Assembly (NCBI GenBank): GCA_001823575.1
Contig: MHUW01000007.1
Coordinates: 24,223-88,222, forward strand
Length of the DNA stretch: 64,000 bases
Direction: 5' to 3'
Source of the DNA: Candidatus Yonathbacteria bacterium RIFCSPLOWO2_01_FULL_47_33b
GTDB lineage: Bacteria; Patescibacteriota; Minisyncoccia; Phycocordibacterales; UBA1550
Shown: in pieces, positions 20,389 to 64,000 of the stretch
Layout of the letters: each line of letters starts with the position of its first letter
How positions within the stretch are numbered: position 1 is the first letter of the stretch
Notes under the pieces: generated by a model
Databases searched by the model: none
Told to the model about the DNA's origin: nothing
Seen by the model: the letters and a program-made list of their open reading frames with translations, nothing else
Program-made: the position numbers and the translations under genes

Positions 20389-20397
20389 ATATTAAAT

Positions 20398-27193: not shown

Positions 27194-27195
27194 GT

Positions 27196-27819
27196 TTATG
27201 TTCGTTTAAAATACCAATACACGATGGCACTCAAAATCGCTGCAAAGAAACACCAAGTAGAAGCGAATGCTGCGGTGTAAAAATAGTACGCCGCTGCAAA
27301 GGATAGTAATACTAGGGTACCAAATATATTGAGTATTTTATTACTCGAAAAAAAGAAGCTTACTGAAGTTGCAAGCAAGTAGAGACCCATCGTGAAGGCC
27401 CCATACTGTGCCGGTAAAGGATACACAATGCTTTTATTTACCACATGAGCAGTCATAGGATGACTGAGTATAAAATAGAGGAGATATAAACTCACCCCCA
27501 CCCCAAGCCCCAGGAATACCGAGAGTATTTGCTTGCGATGGGGGTCTTTTTCTATCGAGCGTATTGAAAATGGCACAAATGTTGGCCACAGAACATAGGC
27601 AAAAAACACAAATGCATACGTCGCGACCTGACCAAAAAATGGCGTGCCGTAACCAAACGAAAGCCACACCACACCTTCGACAGCTTGCTGAATACCAAAC
27701 AAAAGAGGAATCGCCGCAAAAGGAACCTCGTTTTTTGTCCTGGCTTTTTTAATTGTTACCGCTCCCGTTGCGGACAACACGGCCCCGGCTGCAAAACTTG
27801 CGGTTGCTGAAAAACACAT
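27196..27819 (-). CDS. polytopic membrane protein, unknown function
   Basis: 6-7 predicted TM helices. Tightly linked to the ATPase. Confidence 0.5.
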   Translation of the reverse strand: MCFSATASFAAGAVLSATGAVTIKKARTKNEVPFAAIPLLFGIQQAVEGVVWLSFGYGTPFFGQVATYAFVFFAYVLWPTFVPFSIRSIEKDPHRKQILSVFLGLGVGVSLYLLYFILSHPMTAHVVNKSIVYPLPAQYGAFTMGLYLLATSVSFFFSSNKILNIFGTLVLLSFAAAYYFYTAAFASTWCFFAAILSAIVYWYFKRT

Positions 27820-27852
27820 ATTGAATATTGTAGCACAATCAATCGCGCTATT

Positions 27853-30030
27853 TTACAAACTAATAATCTGCCTCCTAAGGAGGAGCGCATTAAACGCTAC
27901 AATCACCGTAGATACACTCATGAGCACGGCTGCCACCGCAGGTTCGAGCACGATACCTCGCGAAGCAAGCACTCCCGCAGCAAGCGGTATCGCAAGAATG
28001 TTGTACCCCGTTGCCCAAAAAAGATTTTGCATCATTTTTGAATAGGTAAGTTGTGAAAGTTTAATGATTTTGGGAATATCGCGCGGGTCGTTTTTTACGA
28101 GGATGATACCCGCAGACTCAATGGCAACATTAGTTCCCGCACCAATGGCGATACCAAGGTCTGCTTGGGTGAGCGCGGGCGCGTCGTTTATCCCATCCCC
28201 AACCATGGCGACCTTGTTCCCTTTCCCTTGAAGCAGCTTTACCTTCTCAGCTTTTTCGTGAGGAAGCACGCGAGCAAAATATTCATCAATACCAAGCTCG
28301 CGAGCGACCCACGCCGCGACATCGGGCGCATCTCCCGTAATCATTGCGGTGCGTATACCAAGCGAACGCAACACACGAATGGCCTCGCGGGATTCTTCAC
28401 GAATAGTATCGGCAAGAGCAATAGAGCCCATCAAAACGCCATCTGATGCGACAAATATCACCGTCTTACCCTCGTTTTCAAGCGCCCGTGTTTTCCCGAG
28501 TATTTCGTGAGAGACTACTACCTTTGCATCAGCCATAAGCGATTCATTTCCTACTACAGTCATATGACCCGCAATCATGCCACGAGCACCCTTGCCGGGA
28601 ACGCGTTCGAAATCTTTAATATCAGAAAGTTTTTGCCCACGTTTGTGTGATTCAGCGACGATTGCTTTTCCGAGCGGATGTTCGGAACCATAATTCAGCG
28701 ATGCTGCCCTTGAGAGAACCTCGTTCTCGGTAGACGACGGAAGTGCCATAACCGCGTGAACGCCAAACATTCCCAGCGTCAAGGTCCCGGTTTTATCAAA
28801 GAGCACGGTATCAACAGAGCGTGCCACTTCAAGAGCAATGCGCTGCCGTATGAGAAATCCATTTCGTGCTGCCATGGTGGTTGATATCGATGCGACGAGC
28901 GGCACCGCGAGGCCAAGCGCGTGCGGGCAGGTGATCACGAGCACGGCAACAAGTCGTTCGGTTGCGGTTACTATCCCTGCGCCCACCAAAAGCCATACGG
29001 CAAAGGTTGTTGCCCCTACGACAAGGGCAATCATCGTCAAATACAGTGCCGCGCGGTCTGAAATAGCCTGTAGGCGCGACTTTGACGCCTGTGCTTCGGC
29101 AACCAGACGCATTACCCCCGCAAGAAATGTCGCCTCGCCAATCTTGTCTACCCGCACCGTGAGGCTGCCGTCACCATTTATTGAACCGGCAATTACGGTG
29201 TCCCCTATTTTTTTGTTCACGGGCTTAGATTCTCCGGTAATGATCGATTCATTTATCTCAGATTGTCCCTCAACGACGGTTCCGTCAGCGGGGATATTAC
29301 TCCCCGGACGTACCAACACCATATCTCCTGAAACAAGTTCAGAGAGGGTAATCGTTTGCGTTTTTCCATCGCGCAACACCTCGGCCGTGTCAGGTAAAAG
29401 TTTAGCGAGCTCCTTGAGCGCCCCTTGTGCACTCTGCACTGATTTCATTTCAATCCAGTGCCCGAGGAGCATAATGGTGATAAGCGATGCAAGCTCAAAC
29501 AAGAGATCGTGCCCAACGCCCTGCACGATGGAAAAAACGCTGTAGGAATATGCGGCCGTGATCGCAAGAGCGATGAGCGTCATCATCCCAGGAAGCCTTG
29601 CCCGTATCTCGCGGTATGCGCTCGTGAGAAATATCAACCCCGGATAAAAAAAGACAACGCTCGCCAACATGAGCGTGACATACTGATATCCCCAAAACAT
29701 CGTGACATGGATATCAAACACCTCCATCGCCATATCTGAATAAATAAAAATAGGGATGGTAAGCACCAGGGACACCCAGAACTTCACGAGAAATGATGAG
29801 GTTTTGTGTCCAGCATGTTTATCATCTGCCCCGTGTCCCTGCGCGGGCCCTGTTTTCTTTTTCTTGGGAATCAGACTCATTCCGCACTCGGGACACATGC
29901 CTGGCATCGTACGTACGATGTTGGGGTGCATAGGGCACGTATAGGCAGCATCCTCAGAGCCTACTATTTGCGGCACCAACACATCTCCTGATGGTTCTTT
30001 TTTATTATTGGTGCAACATTCGTGACTCAT
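27853..30030 (-). CDS. copB: P1B-type heavy-metal ATPase with CPH motif (CopB-like, Cu2+ type)
   Basis: N-terminal CPMHP...CPECG metal-binding domain, TM6 CPH, DKTGTLT and [10 protein letters not shown] motifs. Confidence 0.9.
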
Positions 30031-37972: not shown

Positions 37973-38075
37973 TCTACCACATTCTCTGCGAACGCCTCCC
38001 TTAAATATGCTTTTTCGAGAAATTTGAGGTCGGCGAGTTTGGTGGTTTGGAGGGTGCGGAAGATGATAAAAATCC

Positions 38076-38576
38076 TTACTTCAACACAACCCCGAGGTCG
38101 TAGATATCAAGTTTTCCATCGTTGTTTAGGTCACCGCTGTCGAGTGTCCCTTGTTTTTTGTGCAGGTCGTAGATGAGTTTTAGGTATTTCCCAAGCACGA
38201 TGCGCGGAATCTCATACTGTCGTTCCTTGCCATACCATTCAAATGGGTCTCGGCCGCTCTTTTTGGCGTTACAACCGCGACATGCAAGCACTTGGTTATC
38301 AAACGTATCTATCGCGATTTTTACCTTAGGAATAATATGCTCCCATTCAAGCCCCTCCTCAGCGCTAGCACAATATGCACAAGCTTTTTCTTCGTTAAAG
38401 AATTTCTTGTTCTCTCGCAAAATGTTCGATGGTTGCATCTGTCCATCTTTCAATTTTTTATACGAATGCATAACAAACCCGTAATTCTTTCGGTCACCAA
38501 CCGTGCTCCCCGCAATGAGCTTTGCGTATTCCCAATAAATAAGGTCCCGAATTGTTTTTACTGAAGCGTGAGGCAT
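38076..38576 (-). CDS. HNH endonuclease with a dockerin-like C-terminal motif
   Basis: CAYC...EWEHIIP...LACRGCNAKK HNH motif. C-terminal DLNNDGKLDIYDL. Confidence 0.8.
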   Translation of the reverse strand: MPHASVKTIRDLIYWEYAKLIAGSTVGDRKNYGFVMHSYKKLKDGQMQPSNILRENKKFFNEEKACAYCASAEEGLEWEHIIPKVKIAIDTFDNQVLACRGCNAKKSGRDPFEWYGKERQYEIPRIVLGKYLKLIYDLHKKQGTLDSGDLNNDGKLDIYDLGVVLK

Positions 38577-38590
38577 GATATTTTAAATTC

Positions 38591-38962
38591 TCAGTCTGCT
38601 TTTTTGTTTCTCGGGATCTCACTTCGGGGTTCTCTTCGAGATTTATCAAAAATATTTTCCAGCCATCTTACTAGGAAATTATGATGGTCACCACCAACCT
38701 CATCATAACGCCTGCCTGTAAGGTTTCTTGTAACTGCCTTTAAAAATTCGGCTAGATGCTCGATTTGTAACTTAATATTAACATCCTTTGTAGAAGTAGC
38801 CAGGGAGCGCGTCGCTCTATATTCTGAATTAAATATATTCGCAAGCTCCTGTTTATGTTTTCTCTCCTTAATAAAGACTGAGAATTCGTAGGTAATAAAA
38901 ATAACATTAACAACAAATGAGACTATCTGGAGCCACTCTGGGCTTGGAATTATATTTGGCAT
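38591..38962 (-). CDS. hypothetical membrane-anchored protein
   Basis: N-terminal TM. Same operon as the HNH gene. Confidence 0.5.
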   Translation of the reverse strand: MPNIIPSPEWLQIVSFVVNVIFITYEFSVFIKERKHKQELANIFNSEYRATRSLATSTKDVNIKLQIEHLAEFLKAVTRNLTGRRYDEVGGDHHNFLVRWLENIFDKSRREPRSEIPRNKKAD

Positions 38963-38966
38963 AATT

Positions 38967-39140
38967 TTAGTGTTTGGTTGGGTCTACTAATTTATAAGAA
39001 GATCCTAGTTTTAAGATTGGCGGTAATGTTTTCCCTTTTACACACGTGACTTCAATTCCTGTTTCGCCTCCTCTTGGTCCTATTACTTCATACTGCCCTG
39101 ATCTTGGCACCGCTTGCCCTGGTTTAAATGTATTCTTCAT
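38967..39140 (-). CDS. small YjzC-like protein (57 aa), absent from the ORF track
   Basis: Manual translation MKNTFKPGQAVPRSGQYEVIGPRGGETGIEVTCVKGKTLPPI... matches the YjzC-like pattern KPG.KAP.SG.Y...G..GG...LPP. 4-5 nt intergenic gaps on both sides. Confidence 0.45.
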   Translation of the reverse strand: MKNTFKPGQAVPRSGQYEVIGPRGGETGIEVTCVKGKTLPPILKLGSSYKLVDPTKH

Positions 39141-39145
39141 AATTA

Positions 39146-39709
39146 TTATTCAGCTTCATTAAGTTCTTCCTTTTCCTTGCAATATTTTTCAGAAAAGTCC
39201 TTTAGCGCCACCTTGATGTCTTTAAGTTCACCATCCATTACTGCATCGTTTGTTTCTGGTGTTTTGGGAATAAGTAATTTTACTCCACCACCAAATTTAA
39301 ATTCAAAATTATGAGCAGAGTTATCGATTTCAGCAGAAAAACCTGTTTTATCCTTAGAAACAGCTACATTGGTTGATATTTTTTTAGAGCGAGAAATCAC
39401 TTTGGGTGACCAGTTTGCCATTTTTGTTGGATCAACCCCATATTTTTCATAATCAGAAAGAACTTTAGTTACACGTGACTTATAAGTTGCCAGTGAGCTT
39501 GCGCTGAAGTTTTTGTTTTTTGAAAATACGTTCTGGTAAATTTGCTCGATGTTTTTGCTAAATACGTCTATCGAATTGCGCTCCTCTTCATTTAATACTG
39601 CCTCAAACAGCTTCAGTGCTGTTTTAAGTGCCATACCTGTATTGTCAGGGTATTTTCTGCTCTTGACCGCTCTGTCTATAAACTCATATAGATCTTGAAT
39701 TTTTTTCAT
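39146..39709 (-). CDS. hypothetical protein
   Basis: First gene of a 4-gene minus-strand operon downstream of the RM gene. Confidence 0.5.
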   Translation of the reverse strand: MKKIQDLYEFIDRAVKSRKYPDNTGMALKTALKLFEAVLNEEERNSIDVFSKNIEQIYQNVFSKNKNFSASSLATYKSRVTKVLSDYEKYGVDPTKMANWSPKVISRSKKISTNVAVSKDKTGFSAEIDNSAHNFEFKFGGGVKLLIPKTPETNDAVMDGELKDIKVALKDFSEKYCKEKEELNEAE

Positions 39710-39851
39710 GATATTTTTGGGGTTAATTAGTAACTCCTAAATGCTATCACAACTCAACAATATAAGTCAAGTGATAATATAAACAGATTTGTGTATAATC
39801 TGTTTATATGTGGTTTTTAAAGGGTTTTATGTTATTAAAGTTTTATTTGGA

Positions 39852-42800
39852 CTACTTATCAACATTTTTAATTGCAATCATAATCCTATCCGTTTCAACC
39901 AGTGCTACAATCATTTTTTGATAGTGTTCGATGTCTGTGTTGGAGAGTTTGCGGGATTGGCGGTCCTTGAGCCATTTTTGAGCAGGCTGATAGCCACCGA
40001 TGTAGAAATTCCAGGCGACTTCAGGAACATTGCCAAAATACTGCGTGTCATTGATGTACACATTGCCATCTTTGTATTTTGGATATTTCGCCTCGACGGT
40101 GTCGCTTCCCGCCTGAGGAAATGTCGTGATGAAGTTTTTGAGCTTTGGTGATTCCAAAAGATGTAGTGCGCGGAGTTCACCACCGAGCGCAACAAGCTTT
40201 TTGAACGACTCAGTATCTTGAGGATAAGGAACACGCGGAAAATTAATCTTCAAAAACTCTTTATATTTTTCGCGGTAACTTGGTGAGTGCAAAGCGGCAT
40301 AGATGTAATCAAAAATATCTTCGGGGGTTGTCTTGCCGACAATCTTTTCTATTTCATCAACAATTTCTTTTTTGAGGTTCGGTGTTTTTAAGCCGTCTTC
40401 GGTGTAGAGATAGAGGGGGAAAGTATAAGCACCTTCCTTCGTCTGCAAAGAAACGGTACATCTATCAACGAGTGTTTTTGTTAAAAAAATGTGTTTAAAA
40501 TCAGAGCTGCTTTGCTGCTTGGAAACCAGCAGGGCTAAATTATCTTTACCAACCAAATGTTTGTAAACTTTATATCCAGAACGACTAATCAGCTCTGGGT
40601 CATAATAGATCCACACAAAACCAAACGGTCTATACTGCTCTAACTGTATGTAATTTTCATCAAACAACTTCCCTTTAATTCGTTCCGTTAATTTATATCC
40701 ACTTGAGTCGACCACTCGATAAGTAGATTTAAAACTACCACTGTAATTATTTGATAGAAGTTCTTGAATTTTCTTTGTGAGTTTACTTTTATCAAAATCT
40801 GTGAAGAGCGGGTCTCGATCAGTCTGAACACCAGAATTCGAAATCTGAAATAACTCATCAACCTTAAAACCTTTCTCATATTCTTCATTCGCACCAAAAT
40901 CTTTCGGCACAAAAAAATAGTACGGCTCAGAATATTCAAGTTTCTGCCATTTAATATTTTCTACCGACCCAGCATCAAGTGCCTCGAACTTTACTTTTTG
41001 TTTTCCGTAGAGTTCGGTGTGGTACATATCTGCCAACCGCTTTTTCTTTCCGCTTTTCTTTACGAACAGAGAGATAGATACACCCTGTTGAATAGCGAAA
41101 ACGTTTTCGTCCTTCCCTCCGTCAGGTGCTACTTCTTTCTTTTTTGCATTGCCGTGCAGGTCGATAATATAAATCGAGTCAAATGTTTCGAGCAAGTGTT
41201 TGCGCATTTGACGGTGCGTGATTCCGTCGATGAATGAGTTGTTCGTAATCATACCAACAATCCCCTCACCATTTTTCTCAATTAAGTCCTCAGTAAAACG
41301 AATGAATTTTATATAATCATCGTCAAGGTTGATTTTACGCTCGTTCAAATCTTTTTTGTATTCCTTGATCAATTCTGAAATATGTTCACCCTTGTTTTGC
41401 GAGCTGACATTATAGGGCGGGTTGCCCATCACGACCATGATCGGCAATTCGTTTTTTACGCGGTTTGCTTGGTTGGACTCTTCAGTGATTGCTTTACCGA
41501 GACCGATGCTTGAAAATAAGGTGTTTTCTTCTGACTCGCCTTTTTCGAGCGAGTTGGTTAGGTACACACCGAGGCGCGTACTCTCGTTAATATTTGCGCC
41601 AGACTCTTTGATCGTCGAAGAAAGTTTGAGGTGTGCGATAGTGTACGACGCCATCATAAGTTCAAAGCCATGAAGGCGCGGGAGTAGGTCTTCGTTCACA
41701 TAATTGTTCCACCTCCCCTCTTGCCCTGCAAATGATTTTTGGATGTGCTGTATCGCTTCATTCAAAAATGTCCCCGTGCCTGTTGCGGGGTCGAGTACTT
41801 GGACTTTGTGCACCGACACTTTGTGTTTCTTGCCTTGCACCTCTTTCATTATTTCGATTTTTGAATTTTCGGCGAGGCCTTGCGCAAGACCAAACTCTTT
41901 TTTCAAAATGTCATCTACGGCGCGAACAATGAACCGCACCACAGGGAGTGGGGTGTAGAACACGCCCATCTTTTTGCGCTCGGCAGGGTCATACTCCTGC
42001 AAGAAGTCTTCGTAAAAATGAATGATGGGGTCGCGACTGTCGTCCTTGCCCACTTTGTAGTAGTTATGCACGATTGCCTCTACGTCGGCATTAGTAAACT
42101 CTTCACAAAGTTCGTTTACAATAAACTCAATACGTGGGTCAAACGACGAGCCGGCGATGTGGTCAAAAAAATGGCGAAGAAACGGATTGGACGCTGGGAC
42201 TAAATCACGCGCTTCCCTGCGCGAAAAATCCTCTGGTGTATCGTCATAGTACCTTGCAACAAAAAGCCCGTACACGAGCGTCTGTGCATACATATCGGCA
42301 AACTTTTCCTTGTCGAGGTCGGCAAGTAAGAGCTTTTTGATAACCTCGTAGACAGAGAGTAGGTTTTCATTTTTTGCGTTGTCTTCTTGCGCAAGAAAAA
42401 CCTTTACATTGTCGCGGATACGGCGCGCCTTGCCAGCCATCACCTTTGCCAAGACTGAGCCAGACTTTATCGGCTCTTTTGATTCGGTGATGAAGCCGCT
42501 AATTGTGTCCTCGAGAAGCTTGAACGTTTCCTCGTTTGAAACTATTTCTTTTTTGTCGAGCTTTGCGATAACAACCGCCTCGCCGTATCGTGTAGCATTT
42601 TGATAAAAACGAAACTCAAGACAGTTGGTAAGAATAATATTTGAGTATCCGTAATACCTACCCATTTGTTCGCTTTTTTCTATCTCGTCAAGTGAAATAT
42701 TAAGGTCCTTTGCTTCTGCATATGCAACAACGGTCTTCCCTTTAGTAAAGACGAAATCCGGTGCGCCATACTCGCTTCGTTTTGGTTCGTTGTGAACTTT

Positions 42801-42920
42801 TAATTCGGTGATTTTTTCAAACAACTCTTGAAGCGCGGGGCGGTACGAGTGCTCGGTAGCATGTCCGCTTGCGTGCGTTTCAGCGACTTTTTGTATGAAA
42901 TTTTTTACAGTTTGACTCAT
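39852..42920 (-). CDS. Type IIG restriction-modification enzyme, MmeI-like (nuclease + gamma-class N6-adenine MTase + TRD)
   Basis: N-terminal PDFVF...AYAEAKD nuclease motif. MTase motif I VLDPATGTGTFL and motif IV NPPY. Length about 1000 aa. The track start 42959 is not ATG, so the ATG at 42920 is preferred. Confidence 0.85.
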   Translation of the reverse strand: MSQTVKNFIQKVAETHASGHATEHSYRPALQELFEKITELKVHNEPKRSEYGAPDFVFTKGKTVVAYAEAKDLNISLDEIEKSEQMGRYYGYSNIILTNCLEFRFYQNATRYGEAVVIAKLDKKEIVSNEETFKLLEDTISGFITESKEPIKSGSVLAKVMAGKARRIRDNVKVFLAQEDNAKNENLLSVYEVIKKLLLADLDKEKFADMYAQTLVYGLFVARYYDDTPEDFSRREARDLVPASNPFLRHFFDHIAGSSFDPRIEFIVNELCEEFTNADVEAIVHNYYKVGKDDSRDPIIHFYEDFLQEYDPAERKKMGVFYTPLPVVRFIVRAVDDILKKEFGLAQGLAENSKIEIMKEVQGKKHKVSVHKVQVLDPATGTGTFLNEAIQHIQKSFAGQEGRWNNYVNEDLLPRLHGFELMMASYTIAHLKLSSTIKESGANINESTRLGVYLTNSLEKGESEENTLFSSIGLGKAITEESNQANRVKNELPIMVVMGNPPYNVSSQNKGEHISELIKEYKKDLNERKINLDDDYIKFIRFTEDLIEKNGEGIVGMITNNSFIDGITHRQMRKHLLETFDSIYIIDLHGNAKKKEVAPDGGKDENVFAIQQGVSISLFVKKSGKKKRLADMYHTELYGKQKVKFEALDAGSVENIKWQKLEYSEPYYFFVPKDFGANEEYEKGFKVDELFQISNSGVQTDRDPLFTDFDKSKLTKKIQELLSNNYSGSFKSTYRVVDSSGYKLTERIKGKLFDENYIQLEQYRPFGFVWIYYDPELISRSGYKVYKHLVGKDNLALLVSKQQSSSDFKHIFLTKTLVDRCTVSLQTKEGAYTFPLYLYTEDGLKTPNLKKEIVDEIEKIVGKTTPEDIFDYIYAALHSPSYREKYKEFLKINFPRVPYPQDTESFKKLVALGGELRALHLLESPKLKNFITTFPQAGSDTVEAKYPKYKDGNVYINDTQYFGNVPEVAWNFYIGGYQPAQKWLKDRQSRKLSNTDIEHYQKMIVALVETDRIMIAIKNVDK

Positions 42921-42957
42921 AAAAAGTAGGAGTGTTAACAGTTCCCAGTATACCTCC

Positions 42958-42990
42958 AATCAATCTTTAATACAAAAGCCCCAATCGGGG
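42958..42990 (-). terminator. terminator after the MazG-like gene
   Basis: gccccgattggggc followed by ttttgtatt on the minus strand. Confidence 0.55.
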
Positions 42991-42997
42991 CGCTTGT

Positions 42998-43348
42998 TTA
43001 CAGCTTCGTATACTTCGTATGCTTCCCTTTGGCTTTTTCGACGGGGTATTTGGCTTTGTTTTTCTCTATCTTTTTCTCGTGGGCGTCGGCGATGTCGATG
43101 CCGAGGTCGTGACTCATCAAAAGGACCCACGAGAGCACATCCGCGAGCTCCTCGCCTATCTCCTCTTTACCCTCTTTTACATACACCTCTATTTCCTCTT
43201 TGTTTTTCCACTGGAAATGCTCCAGCACCTCGGCTGCCTCGAGCGAGAGCGATATTGCGCAGTCCTTGGGGTTGTGGAACTGCTGCCAGTCGCGTTCATC
43301 CCGAAACTTGGTAATCTCCTCCGTTAATTTTTGAATTGAATTAGGCAT
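42998..43348 (-). CDS. MazG-like nucleotide pyrophosphohydrolase (small all-alpha NTP-PPase)
   Basis: EEI..F...R.W..FH.PK...SL..E..E.LE and EE..D MazG-type motifs. 2-nt gap from the upstream gene. Confidence 0.8.
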   Translation of the reverse strand: MPNSIQKLTEEITKFRDERDWQQFHNPKDCAISLSLEAAEVLEHFQWKNKEEIEVYVKEGKEEIGEELADVLSWVLLMSHDLGIDIADAHEKKIEKNKAKYPVEKAKGKHTKYTKL

Positions 43349-43350
43349 TT

Positions 43351-44409
43351 TTATTGTAGGGATTTTTTTGCTTCATTTTTTGCACGCTCAACCATAAATT
43401 TAACGGCTTCGTTCATATTGGTGTCCTGGATTACAATATCCGGCCGTTTTTCCTGAAATACGCGGTAGACCTCATCAGCAAATGCTTGCCCAATCATCGG
43501 AACACGATCATAATCCATCACGATTATTCTGAATTTCTCAAGCCCCGACAATACACGCCGAGCCTGAGAACGAGAAATATGCACACCACCCATAGTGTAC
43601 AAGCGGACTCGAATCTCTGTTTTATCAAACCCATAATCGCTATCTTCAGCAAGGTTAGTATACTTCTTAAAAATATCGTTCAAATGGTGTTTGTCTTTTA
43701 TATTGATCTTGAAACTCACCTTCGTCCCTTTTTTGATTCCCTTTATTTTTTTAACGAAGATGTCTTTAATTTTGTTATCCGCAATATATTGATACCCGTA
43801 GCTATCAAGTACAAAAAGGTCCCCGACTTTTGATGTGAAGAAAATACCCTCACCTGAATGAAGTTTGGGCGCTGTGGTCATTTTTCCTTTTAAAAGGTCC
43901 TGAATTGCTTCAATCTCAGAGTTAAGGTTGCGTTTACGCATAATGTTACGGTATACACCAACGCCGTAGTCATCAATAACAAAAGAAAGCTCGTTGTCTT
44001 TCAGTAGTACCGTAACCTGAATTATTTCTGACTTGGAATGTTCGATAGCATTATTCAACATTTCTGAAAATGCGAACGTAAAAATACTTTTTATATTTTC
44101 TGGAAGTTTTTTAAACGGTAAAAATGAGCGCTCAACATCATCAAGGACTTTGTGCTCCTCGAGAGATTTGTTTTCTAATTTTTTGGTGTACCTATTTTCA
44201 ATAGTGTCTGGATGGGAATCAGCGTATTCTGGCAAAACATACGCGGCATTGCGAGTCGATCCTATTTTTATAAGTTTTCCTTCGGCGACAAGTTCAGACA
44301 GCATTTTTGAAACATACTGCCTCGTAACACTAAAAGCCGCCACAAAATAGGCACTTTTAAGAAGCCCTTTCTGTTTTGCTATCTTGAGTATCTTTTCCTT
44401 GTTCAGCAT
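43351..44409 (-). CDS. wHTH - GHKL ATPase-like - DUF4325 (STAS-like) protein
   Basis: N-terminal HTH, central FSEMLNNAIEHS (HATPase_c-like) and C-terminal RIIVMDYDRV...GQAFADEV (DUF4325-like). The track starts at TTG 44421. Confidence 0.6.
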   Translation of the reverse strand: MLNKEKILKIAKQKGLLKSAYFVAAFSVTRQYVSKMLSELVAEGKLIKIGSTRNAAYVLPEYADSHPDTIENRYTKKLENKSLEEHKVLDDVERSFLPFKKLPENIKSIFTFAFSEMLNNAIEHSKSEIIQVTVLLKDNELSFVIDDYGVGVYRNIMRKRNLNSEIEAIQDLLKGKMTTAPKLHSGEGIFFTSKVGDLFVLDSYGYQYIADNKIKDIFVKKIKGIKKGTKVSFKINIKDKHHLNDIFKKYTNLAEDSDYGFDKTEIRVRLYTMGGVHISRSQARRVLSGLEKFRIIVMDYDRVPMIGQAFADEVYRVFQEKRPDIVIQDTNMNEAVKFMVERAKNEAKKSLQ

Positions 44410-44462
44410 ATTGTAAACCAATTGTAAACCAATGCTTTTTAATTGTCAACTAATTGTCAACC
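44410..44462 (-). promoter_or_regulatory. promoter built from tandem 11-bp repeats (2x TTGACAATTAG, 2x TTTACAATTGG) giving TTGACA-17-TACAAT, leaderless
   Basis: Repeats read directly. The -10 lies immediately upstream of the ATG. Confidence 0.55.
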
Positions 44463-44513
44463 AGCAAAATAAGGCTTATTTTCAGTGTTATTTTGCTAAT
44501 TTGTGGATGTTAT

Positions 44514-45769
44514 TTAAAGAAACAACAAATCCCTATCCAAATCATCGGACTCGGTGCCTTTTGTTTTGTGTTTGAGGGCGGTGTGAGTTGAAGCGAGGTA
44601 CACCACGCGCTTGCCGAGTTTGTCTTCTAGTGTATCAATGCGTTTGTGGATGGCATCAAACTTGTCGGCCTTGATCGTCCCACCGAACAAATCCGCCTGT
44701 GAAGCATGTCCGGGAACAAGGTCGTGGAGGGTTACTCCTGTGGTGCGGTACAGAACGCCTCCTGTATGTATTTTTTCAAGCTCCGCATGCGCGAGCGCCA
44801 TGAGAATCTCGGGGGAATTTGAAGGTACGGAAAGTGGTATCGAACACGTTACGATTTTGAAATTTTGTGTCTTCAGAAAAATAGAGATTTTCTTGGGCAC
44901 CAATTCATAGTGTCGCGCTTTTTTGCAGGCGTCCTCTATGTTTTTTGAAAGCTGCGACCAGAGAAATGTTTTGTCATTGGTCGCGGGGTGAAATGTTAGC
45001 GTCTTTTGTATGGACGAGTAAACTGTTTTAACCTCTGGGTCTACCTCCATAACCGACTCGCCGCCCAACTCGCGCCAGATAGCTTCGTAGGGTTTTGAGA
45101 GATTTTGTCTGACCCAAGAAATATCTTTCATACTAAAATCTTTGGCAGTATACACGGCCCTCTTGGTGAGAAACTCTGCTGTTTTGGGTCCAATGCCCCA
45201 AACTTTCTTGATTGGTGTCTTTGTGAGGAAATCCGGCGCCGTACTTGTCTCGATGACGGTCAGACCATTTGGCTTGACCCAGTTGGATGCAACCTTGGCA
45301 AGCACTTTTGTTGGCGCGAGACCAATCGACACCGAGAGCCCGAGCTCTTCGTTTACTTCTTTTTTAATACGCTCCGCCATTTGCAGATAGGTCATCTTGA
45401 GTGGTGGCTCGAGTCCCGTGAGATCGGCAAAGCATTCATCAATACTATATTCCTCGACATCATCGGCATACCTGCGCACAATATCAAACATCTTGCTCGA
45501 ATAAAGTGCATATGACTTGTAGTCTCCTGGCAGAATGATGACGCTCGGGAAGTCTCTTTTGACTTTGAATATCGGCATACCGCGAATGATGCCGAGCGCT
45601 TTTGCTTCGTACGACAGCGCCGATACAATCCCCGCTCCTCGCCCGTCACCACCGGCAGACCCTTTAGCGTCGGGTCCTTTGCGACCTCCACCCCCACAAA
45701 AAACGCATCTCCATCAATATGGAAAATCACCTTTTGTTTTATGAGATTATTTTGAGCGAGTGTCTTCAC
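44514..45769 (-). pseudogene. dinB: DNA polymerase IV (Y-family) interrupted by a -1 frameshift in a C4/G4 homopolymer
   Basis: The N-terminal frame (IFHIDGDAFFVGVEV...GEERG) and the downstream frame (IVSALSYEAKALGIIRGMPIFKVK...) are both DinB-like. The junction is at cccc 45630-45633. One extra C/G would fuse the frames. Confidence 0.75.
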
Positions 45770-45793
45770 TCACTGTATTATACCAAATTCTCT

Positions 45794-45814
45794 GACTGGG
45801 GAACTTGGTCCAAG
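45794..45814. repeat. degenerate direct repeat of the tRNA-Gln 3' end (14/14 bp ACTGGGGAACTTGG, then a T-loop-deleted remainder)
   Basis: Identical 14-mer at 45794-45807 and 45998-46011. Confidence 0.6.
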
Positions 45815-45957
45815 AGTCTGCGGCCAAGCCGTGAATTTTGTAATTCAGAATCTGCTGATTCAGGATCGCCTCTCGCTCTGCTGAGCTCGAAACCTACGTC
45901 CTCTCTTCGAGGACTGCGGCCCGCGGTTCAATCCCAAGTTCTTCAACCGTTGTAAAT

Positions 45958-45992
45958 AAAAAGCACCCTCATGACAAGGGTGCTTTTTATTT
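45958..45992 (-). terminator. terminator downstream of tRNA-Gln
   Basis: aaaaagcaccc-ttgtcatga-gggtgcttttt. Confidence 0.7.
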
Positions 45993-45998
45993 ACAAAA

Positions 45999-46069
45999 CT
46001 GGGGAACTTGGGATCGAACCAAGATTGACGGCTTCAAAGGCCGCTGTCCTACCATTAGACGATTCCCCA
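45999..46069 (-). tRNA. tRNA-Gln (anticodon TTG)
   Basis: Manual cloverleaf: acceptor UGGGGAA/UUCCCCA with U1-A72, D-arm GUCU-AAUGGUA-GGAC, anticodon arm GCGGC-CUUUGAA-GCCGU, T-arm CUUGG-UUCGAUC-CCAAG, discriminator G. CCA is not encoded. Confidence 0.85.
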
Positions 46070-46122
46070 ATATTTAAAACAGCACTTGTGCAGAATACAC
46101 CAAAAGAGATACTTCGGCAACG

Positions 46123-61129: not shown

Positions 61130-61426
61130 ATGCCCGACATCTATCGCACGGTAGCAGATGCCGTATCCACAGTACTTCGTGAAAACAACTGCACATTTGA
61201 TGCAGCATTCTCGGCGGTAATGCAGAACTACAAACACCTTGACTGGACAACTACTCGCCGTGAAGTTGGAAGCATGCTTGGCAAACGAAAAAAACGCAAG
61301 CCAAGCAAGGTGAAAATACCCAAGCAGTTAGATCTTTTGTTCGGCCGCCCACGAGATGAAGTTCTCGCCGACGCAGCAGAACAAGAAGCAAACCTAACCC
61401 GCGGAATCCCCGCACACGACCTTTAA
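61130..61426 (+). CDS. hypothetical protein (98 aa)
   Basis: Strong promoter plus SD. Confidence 0.55.
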   Translation: MPDIYRTVADAVSTVLRENNCTFDAAFSAVMQNYKHLDWTTTRREVGSMLGKRKKRKPSKVKIPKQLDLLFGRPRDEVLADAAEQEANLTRGIPAHDL

Positions 61427-61481
61427 GCGGCACCCCTGGTGTCGCTTTTTTCTTTCCGTTCCCCGTGCTATTCTTGTCATT

Positions 61482-61730
61482 ATGTCAGGGCAAATTGCAA
61501 CCACATTTCTCGGTAATGACCTCGTTTGGTGGACGGGTATTTTGGGAGGGGTATTTTTTCTCCTCCTCCTCGTTACCGCGCTCGTCAAACAATACAACTG
61601 GAATATTTTTATGAAGTGGCAGATCCCCCTCACCCCGCTCCATCACTGGTTCGGCTGGCTCACGATGGGGTTTCTCTTTGTGCATTTCCTCCTCGCCATC
61701 TTCCAATTTAATTTCCATGTCTTTTTTTAG
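61482..61730 (+). CDS. small membrane protein with conserved His residues (possible ferric-reductase-like heme-binding stub)
   Basis: Two TM helices with HHWFGW...H. The stop overlaps the start of the next gene. Confidence 0.45.
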   Translation: MSGQIATTFLGNDLVWWTGILGGVFFLLLLVTALVKQYNWNIFMKWQIPLTPLHHWFGWLTMGFLFVHFLLAIFQFNFHVFF

Positions 61731-62439
61731 TATCATCAAGAACTGGTTCACCGAAGCACCTCATTTCGAGGGCACTATTACCGCAACCGAGCTCATAGGC
61801 TCACGCATTCAAAAAGTCACCATCAGCCTCCCTTCCCCCGTTGCTACACAATTCCCCGTCGGGTGCTATGTGCAAGCGATGACTTCAGGTGTCGTTCCCC
61901 GAGCATACTCTGTTGCGACGGCGGACACTACTTCATTCACCCTTTTGGTGAGCTTTGGTGGACGGGGTGCAGGGGCACGTTTTTTTGCCGATACTCCTGT
62001 TGGTACAGTAGTAAAATGTTATGGCCCTTTTGATGATTTCCCGTATCGTGCAGGTACTGGCCGTTCAAAAATATTTTTTGCCACCTCGACCGGCGTCGCA
62101 CCGTTTCGTCGTATGGTTGAAGAAGCACTGAATGAGGGTCTCGAAGCAACGCTCATTCTTGGTACCCCAAAAGAATCTGATATTGCGTTCAGAAGTGATT
62201 TTGAGGAAATTGCGCGTACTAATCCTTACTTTCATTTCATCCCCGTCCTCTCGGCGAGCGACCCCTTATGGCAAGGAGCCCGAGGTTATGTAACTGACCA
62301 AGTTAGCGGCAAAACAGAGCTTCTCCGTAAGTCTGACATCTATATCTGCGGAGTACCCATGATGACCTTGAGTGTCCTTAACATCCTTAAAAAAGAAGGA
62401 GTACCGGAAGCGCAGATATTTGTGCAAAAATTTGGCTAG
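61717..62439 (+). CDS. FNR-like FAD/NAD(P)-binding oxidoreductase domain protein
   Basis: RAYSVA (RxYS FAD motif), ATSTGVAPF (NAD motif) and YICGVPMM. The track start 61678 is upstream, so the ATG at 61717 is preferred. Confidence 0.7.
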   Translation: MSFFSIIKNWFTEAPHFEGTITATELIGSRIQKVTISLPSPVATQFPVGCYVQAMTSGVVPRAYSVATADTTSFTLLVSFGGRGAGARFFADTPVGTVVKCYGPFDDFPYRAGTGRSKIFFATSTGVAPFRRMVEEALNEGLEATLILGTPKESDIAFRSDFEEIARTNPYFHFIPVLSASDPLWQGARGYVTDQVSGKTELLRKSDIYICGVPMMTLSVLNILKKEGVPEAQIFVQKFG

Positions 62440-62443
62440 CAGG

Positions 62444-62529
62444 GTATACCCCCACACCTATTTTTTGCACTATCAAATCGCTAACGTTCGACAAAAAGTG
62501 CTATGCAAAAAATAGGTGTGGGGGTATAC
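62444..62529. repeat. MITE-like element, copy B (TIR GTATACCCCCACACCTATTTTTT, 40-bp spacer)
   Basis: Same TIRs as 17586-17678 with different internal sequence. Confidence 0.7.
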
Positions 62530-62538
62530 TTATCACAT

Positions 62539-63006
62539 ATGGAACACTCAAAAGAAACAATCTACGAAGGGATTCTGCGCGTGAGGCAGTACGGGGTCTT
62601 TTTAGCCCTCGCATTTGCAGTACTTCATATTCTAGCATTTCTTTCCATACAATGGATCGAGCGCAACGAGATTCGCCAAGAACTCGTCCAATGGTCGCAG
62701 ACACTTCCCAAAGTAGACCCGGCTGAACCTGCAAAGGAGCTTCATCTCCCCGAGGACATCCTTGCTCTTCATGTAGACAAACTTGAACGCACCGGTTTTT
62801 ATGAAATGAAGACTGACAAAGAATATCTCGCATACGCAAACCCAAACAACAACTACATCCTCGCAAAATCAGAAGAGTCCGCCAAACACGAGGTATTACA
62901 CTTTGCAACCATATTGGGCATGCTTTTCGTCGGTGACCTCCTTCTTCTCCTTGGGTGGTGGAGATTCACCCGCTCGAAGGTTCAGGAATTATTTGAAGTA
63001 GCATAA
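62539..63006 (+). CDS. hypothetical membrane protein (2 TM)
   Basis: The track start 62503 lies inside the repeat element, so the ATG at 62539 is preferred. Confidence 0.45.
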   Translation: MEHSKETIYEGILRVRQYGVFLALAFAVLHILAFLSIQWIERNEIRQELVQWSQTLPKVDPAEPAKELHLPEDILALHVDKLERTGFYEMKTDKEYLAYANPNNNYILAKSEESAKHEVLHFATILGMLFVGDLLLLLGWWRFTRSKVQELFEVA

Positions 63007-63010
63007 TCAC

Positions 63011-63586
63011 ATGACCCCTTTCAAAAAAAATCTTCAACGTTTCTTTATTCTCTTTTTCTCGACACTGTCTGTGGGTATTATTATCGTCGGCGTAAACCGC
63101 GCAAAAAAAGTACCGACACTTGGTGAAGCCCCAACACCACTCACCCCAACACCTGACCAAGGCACAGCAGGAACTCCTGGGACCATGGTTGCTGGTACAA
63201 CGGTTTCTATAACTGGCAAAACATATCAGACGCCGTACGGCAACGTCACCGCTGCTATCCAAGTAAAAGACGGTAAAGTTGTTGGTGTGACCATGCCTCA
63301 GGTTCCCAATTCCCCACCATCAATCTACGCAGAGTCTTACCTCGTCGACCAAGCTATTAAAGCAGGTGGAGCAAATATCCAGGGTGTTTCTGGCGCCACC
63401 TACACAAGCCTTGCTTTCAAGTCATCGCTCGAAAGTGCAATAGCACAAGCAAAAACACAGGGACAGACCATTACCACAGGCACCGCATCTACTGGGTCGA
63501 GCGCTGTCGCTCCAGGACCCAAGCCTTCAGTTCCTCTACAGTATCGTGGTGACGATGACGATGAGGGCGAAGAGTGGGACGACTAA
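63011..63586 (+). CDS. membrane-anchored FMN_bind-domain protein with acidic C-tail
   Basis: N-terminal TM. Flavinylation-type motif GVSGATYTS. Confidence 0.75.
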   Translation: MTPFKKNLQRFFILFFSTLSVGIIIVGVNRAKKVPTLGEAPTPLTPTPDQGTAGTPGTMVAGTTVSITGKTYQTPYGNVTAAIQVKDGKVVGVTMPQVPNSPPSIYAESYLVDQAIKAGGANIQGVSGATYTSLAFKSSLESAIAQAKTQGQTITTGTASTGSSAVAPGPKPSVPLQYRGDDDDEGEEWDD

Positions 63587-63604
63587 TTTCGTCGCCCTGT
63601 CTCT

Positions 63605-64000
63605 ATGGAAAATAAAATCTTACATCGCCTCTTTCACACAATGGGTATCGCTGTGCATTGCACATTCATCGGCATCAGTGACAAAGATGCCGACATACGC
63701 ACCGCCGAAGCAGAGAAAATTTTTAGTTCCTACGACGAGCGCTTTAGTCGCTTCAAAGAAACGAGTGAGCTTCATCGCTTAAATACAAGCAATGGTATAC
63801 CACAAAAAGTAAGCATCGAGATGTTTCAGGTAATCAAGGAATGCGTCATGCTTTCCAAAGAAACGAGTGGCGCCTTTGATCCGTCGGTCGGTAGCATCCT
63901 CGCCTCGTACGGATACGGGCTCCCTGCAAATTTTATCCTGCCCGATACCATCCCTACCTACGAGAGTATTGTATTTAACAATCAAGACCTCGAGATTACC
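63605..64000 (+). CDS. apbE: ApbE-family FAD:protein FMN transferase, 3'-truncated by window end
   Basis: Manual translation MENKILHRLFHTMGIAVHCTFIG...AFDPSVG matches the ApbE N-terminus. Continues past the window end. Confidence 0.7.
   Translation, partial: MENKILHRLFHTMGIAVHCTFIGISDKDADIRTAEAEKIFSSYDERFSRFKETSELHRLNTSNGIPQKVSIEMFQVIKECVMLSKETSGAFDPSVGSILASYGYGLPANFILPDTIPTYESIVFNNQDLEIT

What the first reader, a model, noticed from the sequence alone, without database searches (positions are those of the whole stretch)
61482..64000. Putative extracytosolic flavinylation/electron-transfer module: His-rich membrane stub + FNR-like reductase + FMN_bind protein + ApbE
An 82-aa His-rich two-TM protein is translationally coupled to an FNR-like FAD/NAD(P) domain, which together resemble a split NOX/ferric-reductase. 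They are followed by a 2-TM protein, a membrane-anchored FMN_bind protein carrying the [S/T]GAT flavinylation motif (GVSGATYTS) and an ApbE flavin transferase. ApbE plus FMN_bind clusters are the hallmark of extracytosolic flavin-based redox systems. Finding one with a NOX-like partner in a minimal, CPR-like genome would be notable for its energy or redox metabolism.
Basis: partly seen in the sequence, partly recalled or inferred. Interest (0 to 1): 0.6.

Follow-up and report, generated by a model that had tools for sequence, protein, structure and literature searches.

The report
Minimal split NAD(P)H-to-flavin membrane electron module
A small-genome Parcubacteria (CPR) bacterium carries a conserved five-gene operon that looks like a stripped-down, split relative of the known flavin-tagged "ferric-reductase-like" electron conduits, with an 82-residue two-helix protein apparently standing in for the usual six-helix membrane cytochrome; it is a new variant of a known kind, not a new kind.

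Summary
Window 61482-64000 (+) encodes:
- an 82-aa two-TM protein ("stub");
- a 240-aa FNR-type FAD/NAD(P)H reductase that overlaps it by 14 nt;
- a two-TM protein, probably 155 aa rather than 167;
- a membrane-anchored FMN_bind protein with the GVSGATYTS flavinylation motif;
- the first 132 aa of ApbE.

The same five genes recur with different flanks in relatives down to 43% FNR identity. The named relatives are Yonathbacteria or other Parcubacteria.

The stub is sequence-isolated, with only 9 hits among 1.84 billion representative proteins. It keeps two invariant histidines 14 residues apart in TM2. Its members give consistent but sub-threshold Pfam matches to Ferric_reduct, Ni_hydr_CYTB and DUF4405. 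One relative is a natural tandem duplication (4 TM) coupled to an FNR alone. Another sits with FMN_bind and ApbE but no FNR.

Best reading: a stub homodimer binds two b hemes and passes electrons from NAD(P)H via FAD to covalently bound FMN on the FMN_bind protein.

This matches the published "MsrQ-like" flavinylation systems in logic but fails their formal definition. One point is unresolved: ApbE has no export signal in any family member, and the FMN_bind anchor has positive charges on both sides, so outward orientation is not established. The acceptor (Fe(III) or another extracellular oxidant) is inferred. New variant of a known kind; moderate interest.

The parts
61425..61447 (+). Terminator-like hairpin followed by a T-run, directly after the unrelated 98-aa ORF. 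It marks the upstream boundary of the operon.
   Evidence: The 98-aa ORF is absent from the relatives' clusters.
61482..61730 (+). The 'stub': an 82-aa two-TM protein. The predicted topology is N-out/C-out with a conserved cytoplasmic loop (K36, Q37, N39, Q47). H54 and H68 in TM2 are invariant. Proposed to be a homodimeric di-heme b-type cytochrome.
61717..62439 (+). A 240-aa cytosolic FNR-type FAD/NAD(P)H oxidoreductase. It carries the R62-x-Y64-S65, G126/P129/F130 and C211-G212 motifs. Its start overlaps the stub stop by 14 nt.
62444..62529 (.). Perfect 26-nt inverted repeat (arms 62444-62469 and 62504-62529) within the operon. It is a repeated palindromic element specific to this strain and is probably not part of the mechanism.
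62539..63006 (+). A 155-aa two-TM protein (an alternative start at 62503 would give 167 aa). It has a roughly 60-residue four-stranded beta ectodomain between the helices and belongs to no known family. Proposed scaffold or docking subunit.
63011..63586 (+). A 191-aa FMN_bind protein. It has an N-terminal TM anchor, a Pro/Thr-rich linker, an FMN_bind domain with S127-G-A-T130 (T130 is the predicted flavinylation site, codon at 63398), and an acidic C-terminal tail.
63605..64000 (+). The N-terminal 132 aa of ApbE (FAD:protein FMN transferase). The full length is 305 aa in L001 10595-11512. There is no signal peptide or lipobox.

Best explanation
The five genes encode one membrane complex that carries electrons from cytosolic NAD(P)H to a covalently flavinylated protein, and most likely onward to an acceptor outside the cell.

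Proposed path:
1. The soluble FNR-like protein oxidises NAD(P)H on its FAD.
2. It docks on the conserved cytoplasmic loop of the 82-aa stub.
3. Two stubs pair in parallel into a four-helix bundle. The two H54 ligate an inner heme b and the two H68 an outer heme b.
4. The outer heme reduces the FMN that ApbE has attached to T130 of the anchored FMN_bind protein.
5. That FMN reduces an extracellular acceptor. In some relatives, extra proteins with 2-4 FMN_bind domains may extend the path.

The acceptor is most plausibly Fe(III), for iron uptake, or any available oxidant serving as a quinone-independent outlet for excess reducing equivalents in a fermentative cell. The 155-aa two-TM protein is proposed to complete the membrane bundle and position the FMN_bind domain.

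Status of each step:
- Shown: domain identities, operon conservation, the invariant His pair, the tandem-fusion relative and the modular co-occurrence.
- Inferred: heme binding, dimerisation, direction and sidedness of electron flow, the acceptor, and the role of the 155-aa protein.
For: (1) Component identities. FNR has the complete FAD/NAD(P)H motif set, and its nearest solved relatives are MmoC, NqrF, BenC and cytochrome b5 reductase. FMN_bind matches PDB 8p2a, an FMN-binding domain protein, at E=2e-9 with an identical VSGATYTS. ApbE matches solved FAD:protein FMN transferases (best 6nxi) at E=3e-25.

(2) The five genes stay together, in order, with different flanks down to 43% FNR identity. 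The stub-FNR pair overlaps by 14 nt in the window and 7 of the 11 close-family loci examined, and is adjacent in the other four.

(3) The stub is under strong constraint: 59-88% identity where FNR ranges 43-89%. It has 16 invariant positions, including H54, H55 and H68 and the loop residues K36, Q37, N39 and Q47. Across all 30 relatives only W17, G19, H54, H68 and L71 are invariant.

(4) Per-member Pfam scans hit the three b-type cytochrome membrane families and little else: Ferric_reduct 26/30, Ni_hydr_CYTB 18/30, DUF4405 15/30.

(5) P0172 is a natural tandem duplication of the stub. Each repeat keeps the His pair and the basic loop, and the gene overlaps a 228-aa FNR by 8 nt, with no FMN_bind or ApbE nearby. 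This supports a two-hairpin functional unit with both loops inside and direct FNR-stub coupling.

(6) P0173, an 85-aa stub, sits in an operon with FMN_bind and ApbE but no FNR. This supports stub-FMN_bind coupling.

(7) More distant stub-like proteins (E about 1e-3) sit next to a cupredoxin gene and next to a Ccm heme-handling cluster.

(8) There is a published precedent. DUF4405 and FezC are experimentally heme-b-binding proteins, and FezC is modelled to form its heme sites by homodimerisation (PMC11334425). MsrQ-like proteins that often carry a C-terminal PF00175 domain, clustered with FMN_bind and ApbE, are a described class (PMC8238504).

(9) S/T/P-rich linkers, poly-Asp/His tails and multi-FMN_bind paralogs in relatives fit an envelope-spanning role.
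Against: - No family member's ApbE has a signal peptide, lipobox or TM segment; the protein starts directly at the ApbE fold. This holds for the L175 relative too. That conflicts with flavinylation outside the membrane.
- The FMN_bind anchor has about +3 charge on each flank, so its orientation cannot be called.
- The stub reaches no Pfam gathering score and has no PDB sequence hit at E<=10.
- Patescibacteria are reported to lack electron transport chains (PMC7507113). From general knowledge they usually lack heme synthesis, so the heme supply is unexplained.
- No iron transporter or terminal reductase lies in any of the clusters examined.
- No multimer model, cofactor measurement or expression data exists.
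Confidence: 0.5

Rival explanations
1. Inward-facing flavin model. The FMN_bind domain stays in the cytoplasm, where the signal-less ApbE flavinylates it. It acts as a one-electron FMN shuttle between the FNR's FAD and the stub's hemes, giving a FAD to FMN to heme order as in diflavin reductases. Only the hemes span the membrane.
For: ApbE lacks any export signal in every family member. A conserved R-x-K-K follows the FMN_bind anchor directly; from general knowledge of Sec export, positive charges just after a hydrophobic segment disfavour translocation. Cytosolic ApbEs acting on cytosolic FMN_bind-type substrates are documented (PMC12052999).
Against: The N-terminal flank is equally positive, so N-out insertion is also disfavoured. 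The L175 relative has a conventional N-in anchor (KK before, one R after) yet also has a signal-less ApbE. S/T/P-rich linkers, poly-Asp tails and 2-4-domain FMN_bind paralogs look like envelope proteins. The tandem stub works with FNR without any FMN_bind, so FMN is not needed between FAD and the stub.
Confidence: 0.25
2. The stub is not a cytochrome. It is only a small membrane tether or assembly factor for FNR. The FMN_bind/ApbE pair receives electrons some other way, for example directly from FNR at the membrane surface.
For: No match to a heme-protein family reaches significance, and the fold search was non-specific. CPR organisms are reported to lack respiratory cytochromes.
Against: A mere tether would not need two invariant intramembrane His 14 residues apart, conserved across relatives at 25-39% identity. 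It also would not give consistent weak hits to three b-type cytochrome membrane families only. Tandem duplication preserves both His pairs. Distant relatives sit next to cupredoxin and Ccm genes.
Confidence: 0.15
3. The chain runs as proposed but supplies a dedicated extracytoplasmic repair or reductase enzyme encoded elsewhere (an MsrPQ-like logic), or it reduces O2 (NOX-like), rather than reducing iron or serving as a general electron outlet.
For: MsrQ, the closest named relative of such membrane modules, feeds the periplasmic methionine sulfoxide reductase MsrP. A PMSR (MsrA) gene lies about 4 kb upstream in L007 and L009.
Against: The PMSR gene is on the opposite strand, is separated from the cluster by four other genes, and is absent from the window and from L011 and L012. 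No MsrP-like or other terminal enzyme co-occurs consistently.
Confidence: 0.1

Closest known systems
MsrQ-like flavinylation-associated electron transfer systems (Meheust et al. 2021, PMC8238504; Huang et al. 2024, PMC11334425)
   Same: The parts list and logic match: a His-ligated b-type membrane module, a PF00175 NAD-binding reductase, an FMN_bind protein and ApbE in one gene cluster. The proposed flow runs from NAD(P)H across the membrane to a flavinylated domain.
   Different: In those systems the membrane part is a six-TM PF01794 domain, often fused to the NAD-binding domain, and they occur mainly in Actinobacteria. Here it is an 82-aa two-TM protein below the PF01794 threshold, encoded separately from the reductase. 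There is an extra 155-aa two-TM subunit of unknown family, ApbE has no export signal, and the host is a Parcubacteria (CPR) lineage.
FezC / DUF4405 cytochromes (Huang et al. 2024, PMC11334425)
   Same: These are small His-bearing membrane proteins shown to bind heme b. FezC is modelled to build its heme sites by homodimerisation, and DUF4405 genes co-localise with apbE. Of the 30 stub relatives, 15 give weak DUF4405 hits.
   Different: No significant sequence match: best E=6e-4, below the gathering score. DUF4405 is described as six-TM, and FezC belongs to ferrosome gene clusters, not to FNR/FMN_bind clusters.
NADPH oxidase / ferric reductase (FRD) superfamily
   Same: The order NAD(P)H, FAD, two stacked hemes, outside. 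In both, two His spaced about 13-14 residues apart lie on a helix that follows a cytosolic loop (from general knowledge of NOX2 TM3, H101/H115, and its B-loop; not tested here). The Pfam alignment places stub residues 19-76 on Ferric_reduct profile positions 2-59 of 121.
   Different: NOX has six TMs in one chain with four His on two helices, and its dehydrogenase domain is of the FAD_binding_8/NAD_binding_6 type. Here there are two TMs per chain, and the reductase is FAD_binding_6/NAD_binding_1 and is a separate protein.
NQR/RNF-like systems reported in Actinobacteria and CPR (Meheust et al. 2021)
   Same: A one-way path from NAD(P)H through a PF00175 domain to an FMN_bind subunit, reported in CPR genomes.
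   Different: Those use an NqrB/RnfD-like (PF03116) membrane domain. No such domain is present here.
Listeria-type flavin-based extracellular electron transfer (Ndh2, EetA/B, PplA, FmnB)
   Same: An ApbE-type transferase plus a membrane-anchored flavinylated FMN_bind protein as the outer electron carrier (abstracts).
   Different: That pathway passes through a dedicated NADH dehydrogenase and a quinone pool (general knowledge). No Ndh2, Eet or quinone-synthesis genes lie in this locus. This module would bypass quinones.

Membership tests
MsrQ-like flavinylated system (operational definition of Meheust 2021) | A PF01794 (Ferric_reduct) protein encoded within a flavinylation gene cluster | tested here: not met
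   The window stub scores 13.9 bits against a 28-bit cut-off. The best E among 30 relatives is 9.6e-5, with none at the gathering score.
MsrQ-like flavinylated system | Six TM helices with two heme sites (four His) in one polypeptide | tested here: not met
   There are two hydrophobic segments and two superfamily-invariant His per chain.
MsrQ-like flavinylated system | apbE and an FMN_bind gene in the same cluster | tested here: met
   PF04205 and PF02424 both score above their cut-offs and the genes are adjacent. The arrangement is conserved in relatives.
MsrQ-like flavinylated system | A PF00175 NAD-binding domain (often a C-terminal fusion) | tested here: met
   PF00175 E=2.8e-16, but on a separate, translationally coupled protein. 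No fused form occurs among 111 homologs.
Extracytosolic flavinylation (Meheust 2021 criterion) | A signal peptide or lipidation site on ApbE or on the FMN-binding protein | tested here: inconclusive
   ApbE has none; it aligns from residue 11 to the solved ApbE chain 6nxi. FMN_bind has one N-terminal hydrophobic segment with +3 charge on both flanks. No dedicated predictor was available.
ApbE (FAD:protein FMN transferase, PF02424) | Full-length ApbE fold with conserved active-site region | tested here: met
   The window fragment scores 56.6 bits. The full protein from L001 aligns over residues 11-285 to 6nxi at E=3e-25, including the ATSG and H-x-I-(D/N) segments. Catalytic residues were not checked individually.
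FMN_bind (PF04205) ApbE substrate | An FMN_bind domain carrying the [S/T]GA[S/T] flavinylation motif | tested here: met
   28.8 bits against a 22-bit cut-off; SGAT at residues 127-130. The motif is conserved in all relatives and identical to that in PDB 8p2a.
FNR-like flavoenzyme (FAD_binding_6 / NAD_binding_1) | The RxYS FAD motif, the GxGxxP-type NAD(P)H motif, the C-G motif and a C-terminal aromatic residue | tested here: met
   R62, Y64, S65, G126, P129, F130, C211, G212 and F239 are invariant in 23 sequences. PDB profile hits reach E=6e-26.
NOX / ferric reductase superfamily | A dehydrogenase domain of the FAD_binding_8 / NAD_binding_6 type | tested here: not met
   The window FNR matches only FAD_binding_6 and NAD_binding_1. 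The L172 FNR shows a marginal NAD_binding_6 hit, 22.3 bits against 22.2.
DUF4405 / FezC cytochromes | A PF14358 match; experimentally, heme b binding | tested here: not met
   13.6 bits against a 26.7-bit cut-off; 15 of 30 relatives hit weakly. Heme binding cannot be tested with these tools.
PepSY-like (PF03929/PF16357; FoxB fold), considered for the 155-aa protein | A PepSY_TM sequence match or a FoxB-like fold with conserved heme-ligating His | tested here: not met
   No Pfam hit. The AF2 model (pLDDT 84) has no PDB Foldseek match below E=0.06. The TM1 His is replaced by N or Y in several homologs.
NQR/RNF-like system | An NqrB/RnfD-like PF03116 membrane domain fused to PF00175 | tested here: not met
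   No PF03116 hit in any of the five proteins.

The most novel reading that the evidence does not exclude
The 82-aa stub is the smallest natural transmembrane di-heme cytochrome module. A parallel homodimer of one His-pair hairpin, together with a separately encoded FNR, would form a minimal NOX/ferric-reductase-type NAD(P)H:acceptor oxidoreductase. It is reused modularly: with FNR only, with FMN_bind/ApbE only, and possibly with cupredoxin partners. In Parcubacteria it would give cells that lack quinones and respiratory chains a transmembrane electron outlet. Its flavoprotein would be flavinylated by a cytosolic ApbE before export, a maturation route not described for extracytosolic flavinylation.
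Probability: 0.3. Interest if true: 0.75.

Novelty: new variant of a known kind. Interest (0 to 1): 0.55.

Why it matters
- **CPR physiology.** Patescibacteria/CPR are described as lacking electron transport chains and being poor in oxidoreductases (PMC7507113). Extracytosolic flavinylation was reported as strikingly under-represented in them (PMC8238504). A conserved, quinone-independent NAD(P)H-to-outside electron conduit in Yonathbacteria-type genomes would qualify that picture. It would also offer a concrete handle on how these cells obtain iron or dispose of reducing equivalents.
- **Why surveys may have missed it.** The module would escape domain-based surveys because its membrane parts fall below Pfam thresholds and its ApbE has no signal peptide.
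- **Evolution and protein design.** The 2-TM hairpin, its tandem-fused relative and the six-TM ferric-reductase domain form a plausible series for how di-heme membrane cytochromes are built. An 82-residue unit would also be an attractive minimal scaffold.
- **Known logic.** The overall logic is already established for MsrQ-like systems, which limits the surprise.

Tried and rejected
1. **The 155-aa protein as a minimal PepSY-like cytochrome: rejected.** No Pfam hit, no PDB sequence hit below E=0.4, no Foldseek match to FoxB or anything else below E=0.06, and the TM1 His is not conserved.
2. **The 155-aa protein as a detached histidine-kinase sensor module: rejected.** An HMM of the family found nothing in the neighbouring kinases of L007, L009 and L175.
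3. **Programmed +1 frameshift at TTT TTT TAG (61722-61730) giving a fused stub-FNR: rejected.** The last sense codon and the stop are not conserved (TTC TGA, TTC TAA and others), and four loci have non-overlapping genes.
4. **Fused stub-FNR proteins in relatives: none found.** The one long FNR homolog (P0052, 297 aa) is an out-of-frame upstream extension.
5. **The upstream 98-aa ORF and the downstream 171-aa ORF as operon members: rejected.** Neither is conserved in relatives, and a terminator-like hairpin separates the 98-aa ORF from the stub.
6. **Direct homology of the stub to solved structures:** no PDB sequence hit at E<=10.
8. **AlphaFold-DB fold search for the 155-aa model:** the library was unavailable.
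9. **Distant FNR homologs in Acidobacteriota and other phyla (26-36% identity):** none carried stub, FMN_bind or ApbE neighbours detectable with family HMMs.
10. **Literature:** no paper in the searched library combines Patescibacteria with ApbE. The held supplement text of Meheust 2021 has no Yonathbacteria or Patescibacteria entries, though that text may be truncated.
Full report
**1. What is in the sequence**

Window 61482-64000 carries five consecutive + strand genes.

- **Stub, 61482-61730.** This 82-aa protein has two hydrophobic segments at residues 17-35 and 56-74. Its only basic residues lie in the connecting loop, which predicts N-out/C-out with the loop inside.
- **FNR-type reductase.** It is 240 aa counted from ATG 61717, which overlaps the stub stop by 14 nt. 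Pfam gives NAD_binding_1 at E=2.8e-16 and FAD_binding_6 at 20.8 bits, just under the 21.1-bit cut-off. NCBIfam gives partial matches to MmoC, BenC, Fre and NqrF.
- **Two-TM protein, 62503/62539-63006.** It matches no Pfam or NCBIfam family. Nearly all homologs are 154-158 aa and begin at the second Met. The extra 12 codons fall inside a palindromic repeat. I therefore take 62539 as the start.
- **FMN_bind protein, 63011-63586.** It scores 28.8 bits on PF04205 against a 22-bit cut-off. It has one N-terminal hydrophobic segment, a Pro/Thr-rich linker, SGAT at residues 127-130 and an acidic tail.
- **ApbE, from 63605.** The window holds the first 132 residues (PF02424 E=3.7e-15).

Identical contigs from other samples extend the locus. 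ApbE there is 305 aa and aligns over residues 11-285 to the solved ApbE chain 6nxi at E=3e-25. The next ORF (171 aa) is not conserved elsewhere, and the genes after it are on the opposite strand (DUF5654, HAD, RecQ). The operon therefore ends with ApbE. A terminator-like hairpin at 61425-61447 closes the preceding, unrelated 98-aa ORF.

**2. It is a conserved unit in one lineage**

The FNR protein has 111 homologs of 186-297 aa at E<=2e-53. The next hit is at E=6e-7. Those that carry source names are Candidatus Yonathbacteria, Paceibacterota, Minisyncoccia or Parcubacteria, all in the Patescibacteria group.

I read the loci of members at 43-70% FNR identity (L007, L009, L011, L012, L013, L092, L094, L098). 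All have the same five genes in the same order, while the flanking genes differ. Family HMMs find the four partner genes only next to this FNR clade. They find none beside the 26-36%-identical stand-alone reductases of Acidobacteriota and other phyla. Within the window there is one copy of each gene. Four relatives add a sixth gene between FMN_bind and ApbE. It encodes a protein with two to four FMN_bind domains, each with its own [S/T]GAT motif.

**3. The FNR, FMN_bind and ApbE assignments are secure**

- In 23 aligned FNR sequences, R62, Y64, S65, G126, P129, F130, C211, G212 and F239 are invariant. The nearest solved relatives are the FAD/NADH domains of MmoC, NqrF and BenC, and cytochrome b5 reductase. 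There is no iron-sulfur domain. The FAD must therefore hand electrons directly to its partner, as in cytochrome b5 reductase or NOX (general knowledge).
- The FMN_bind domain matches PDB 8p2a, an FMN-binding domain protein, at E=2e-9 with an identical VSGATYTS segment.

**4. The stub**

It is better conserved than the reductase it accompanies: 59-88% identity with 16 invariant positions. These include H54, H55 and H68 and the loop residues K36, Q37, N39 and Q47.

A profile search of 1.84 billion representative proteins returned only nine hits at E<=1e-3, so the family is small and isolated. There is no PDB sequence hit. Three observations indicate what it is.

- **Weak but consistent family signal.** I scanned each of 30 relatives against Pfam. 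The recurring families were Ferric_reduct (26/30, best E=9.6e-5), Ni_hydr_CYTB (18/30) and DUF4405 (15/30). All three are His-ligated b-type cytochrome membrane families. No hit reaches the gathering score.
- **Minimal invariant core.** Across all 30 sequences, including members at 25-39% identity, only W17, G19, H54, H68 and L71 are invariant. The two His are 14 residues apart on TM2. From general knowledge this is close to the 13-14-residue spacing of heme-ligating His pairs in NOX-type helices, but I did not test that comparison.
- **A natural tandem duplication.** P0172 is a 151-aa, four-TM tandem copy of the stub. Both repeats keep the His pair and a basic K-K-F-N-x-K loop, joined by a short acidic linker. 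That arrangement is what a parallel dimer with both loops inside would look like if fused.

Published work gives a precedent. DUF4405 and FezC were purified as heme-b proteins, and FezC is modelled to form its heme sites by homodimerisation (PMC11334425).

**5. Context shows who the stub works with**

- P0172 overlaps a 228-aa FAD_binding_6/NAD_binding_1 gene by 8 nt, in loci that contain no FMN_bind or ApbE.
- P0173, an 85-aa stub, closes an operon of response regulator, histidine kinase, FMN_bind, ApbE and stub, with no FNR.
- The stub is thus the shared element. It pairs independently with the cytosolic reductase and with the flavinylated protein, which is what a membrane relay between them would do.
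- More distant stub-like proteins (E=6e-4 to 9e-4, so to be treated cautiously) lie immediately downstream of a cupredoxin gene, and one gene upstream of a CcmA-B-C-E/F heme-handling cluster.

**6. The 155-aa protein**

AF2 (pLDDT 84) predicts a long TM helix that extends beyond the membrane, a four-stranded sheet of about 40 residues, and a second TM helix with a conserved basic/acidic tail. The charge distribution fits N-in/C-in with the sheet outside.

It has no fold match in the PDB (best Foldseek E=0.06). Its single TM1 His is not conserved. It is unrelated to the neighbouring kinase sensors. It occurs only in the five-gene version of the system. I propose, by inference only, that it completes the membrane bundle (4+2 helices) and positions the FMN_bind domain.

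**7. Sidedness: the unresolved point**

ApbE begins directly with the first strand of the ApbE fold in the window and in every relative read, including the L175 relative. There is no room for a signal peptide or lipobox.

The FMN_bind anchor has three basic residues before it and a conserved R-x-K-K after it, so the positive-inside rule gives no answer.

Several features argue for an outward-facing domain:
- the S/T/P-rich linkers, the poly-Asp/His tails and the multi-domain paralogs;
- the conventional N-in anchor of the L175 protein;
- the fact that FNR and the tandem stub pair without any FMN_bind.

Two facts argue for an inward-facing domain: the cytosolic ApbE, and documented cytosolic ApbE/substrate pairs (PMC12052999). 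I favour the outward model at roughly 2:1, and I regard flavinylation before export as a real open question.

**8. Mechanism and function**

The most likely path is NAD(P)H, then FAD (FNR), then inner heme (H54 pair), then outer heme (H68 pair), then covalent FMN (T130), then an external acceptor.

Moving electrons outward does not build a proton-motive force. The likely purpose is therefore ferric iron reduction for uptake, as proposed for many MsrQ-like and PepSY-like clusters, or a redox outlet for a fermentative cell. Neither purpose is tested. No iron transporter or terminal enzyme is linked.

A glucose-6-phosphate dehydrogenase gene elsewhere in the window (16138-17727) shows the organism can make NAD(P)H. 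That is context only.

Heme supply is unexplained. Patescibacteria are reported to lack electron transport chains (PMC7507113).

**9. Comparison and novelty**

The parts list and logic match the published 'MsrQ-like' class. That class has a PF01794 membrane cytochrome, often fused to PF00175, with FMN_bind and ApbE. It comprises 1797 clusters, mostly actinobacterial.

This locus fails that class's formal criterion, because there is no PF01794 match at threshold. It also differs in architecture:
- a two-TM subunit, presumably dimeric, in place of six TMs;
- a separate reductase;
- an extra subunit of unknown family;
- ApbE without an export signal;
- a CPR host.

The same paper reports extracytosolic flavinylation as strikingly under-represented in CPR. 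No paper in the searched library links Patescibacteria with ApbE.

I classify it as a new variant of a known kind. Its interpretation is right in outline but overstated on novelty and unproven on 'extracytosolic'.

Noticed in passing
window 62444-62529 and 17586-~17680: A perfect 26-nt inverted repeat (arms 62444-62469 and 62504-62529, 34-nt loop; RNA fold -46 kcal/mol, z=-8.4) sits inside the operon between the FNR gene and the 155-aa gene. A second palindromic element with near-identical termini (GTATACCCCCACACCTA...TAGGTGTGGGGGTATAC) lies at 17586-17680. It looks like a REP/MITE-like repeat family. Relatives have little or no spacer at this position.
   Followed up: partly
window 63605-64000; L001 10595-11512; L007, L009, L011-L013, L092, L094, L096, L098, L175: Every ApbE in this family and in the L175 relative starts directly at the ApbE fold, with no signal peptide or lipobox. 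Yet their FMN_bind substrates carry N-terminal membrane anchors and envelope-like linkers. How and where flavinylation happens is unexplained.
   Followed up: partly
L013 6789-7814; L092 5814-6926; L098 5786-6844; L094 5935-7689: Some relatives insert an extra gene between FMN_bind and ApbE. It encodes two to four FMN_bind domains, each with [S/T]GAT, plus S/T/P-rich linkers and poly-Asp/His C-terminal tails that might bind metal.
   Followed up: partly
L172 5001-6135 and L173 1695-2829: A 151-aa tandem duplication of the stub (4 TM) overlaps a 228-aa FNR gene by 8 nt in an AT-rich (32% GC) genome, with no FMN_bind or ApbE nearby. This would be a two-gene minimal version of the module.
   Followed up: yes
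L175 439-3534 and L176 2163-5258; L007/L009 1618-3520: A response regulator and histidine kinase pair is translationally coupled to FMN_bind-ApbE-stub in L175/L176. A similar pair lies about 2.3 kb upstream of the five-gene cluster in L007/L009. This may indicate regulation by a two-component system.
   Followed up: no
L178 2-600; L179 4657-10125: Distant stub-like 79-81-aa proteins (E about 1e-3) lie just downstream of a cupredoxin/COX2-like gene (L178), and one gene upstream of a CcmA-B-C-E and CcmF cytochrome c maturation cluster (L179, 58% GC).
   Followed up: partly
L009 1-337 and L010/L011 12701-12723: A second NAD_binding_1 gene of about 240 aa lies within 6 kb of the five-gene cluster in two relatives. 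It may be a paralogous reductase or a second system, but it is cut by the locus ends.
   Followed up: no
window 38000-46100: A low-GC stretch (0.38-0.44 against about 0.47 elsewhere) holds a Type ISP restriction-modification enzyme (39852-42959) and a DUF4325 protein. A Fic/RhuM protein lies just upstream of it and a DinB-like polymerase toward its far end. The stretch ends near the only tRNA gene in the window (45999-46069, - strand). It looks like an acquired island.
   Followed up: no
window 16138-23009: A carbohydrate-metabolism block: glucose-6-phosphate dehydrogenase (16138-17727), GH15, GH57 and a GT4/GT5 starch-synthase-like transferase. G6PD is a possible source of the NAD(P)H used by the reductase. 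Two P-type ATPases follow at 24515-30030, one with a heavy-metal-binding domain.
   Followed up: no
window 63584-63607: The FMN_bind and ApbE genes are in the same reading frame, separated only by a TAA stop and six codons. I made no test for readthrough, and relatives with an inserted gene argue against any significance.
   Followed up: no
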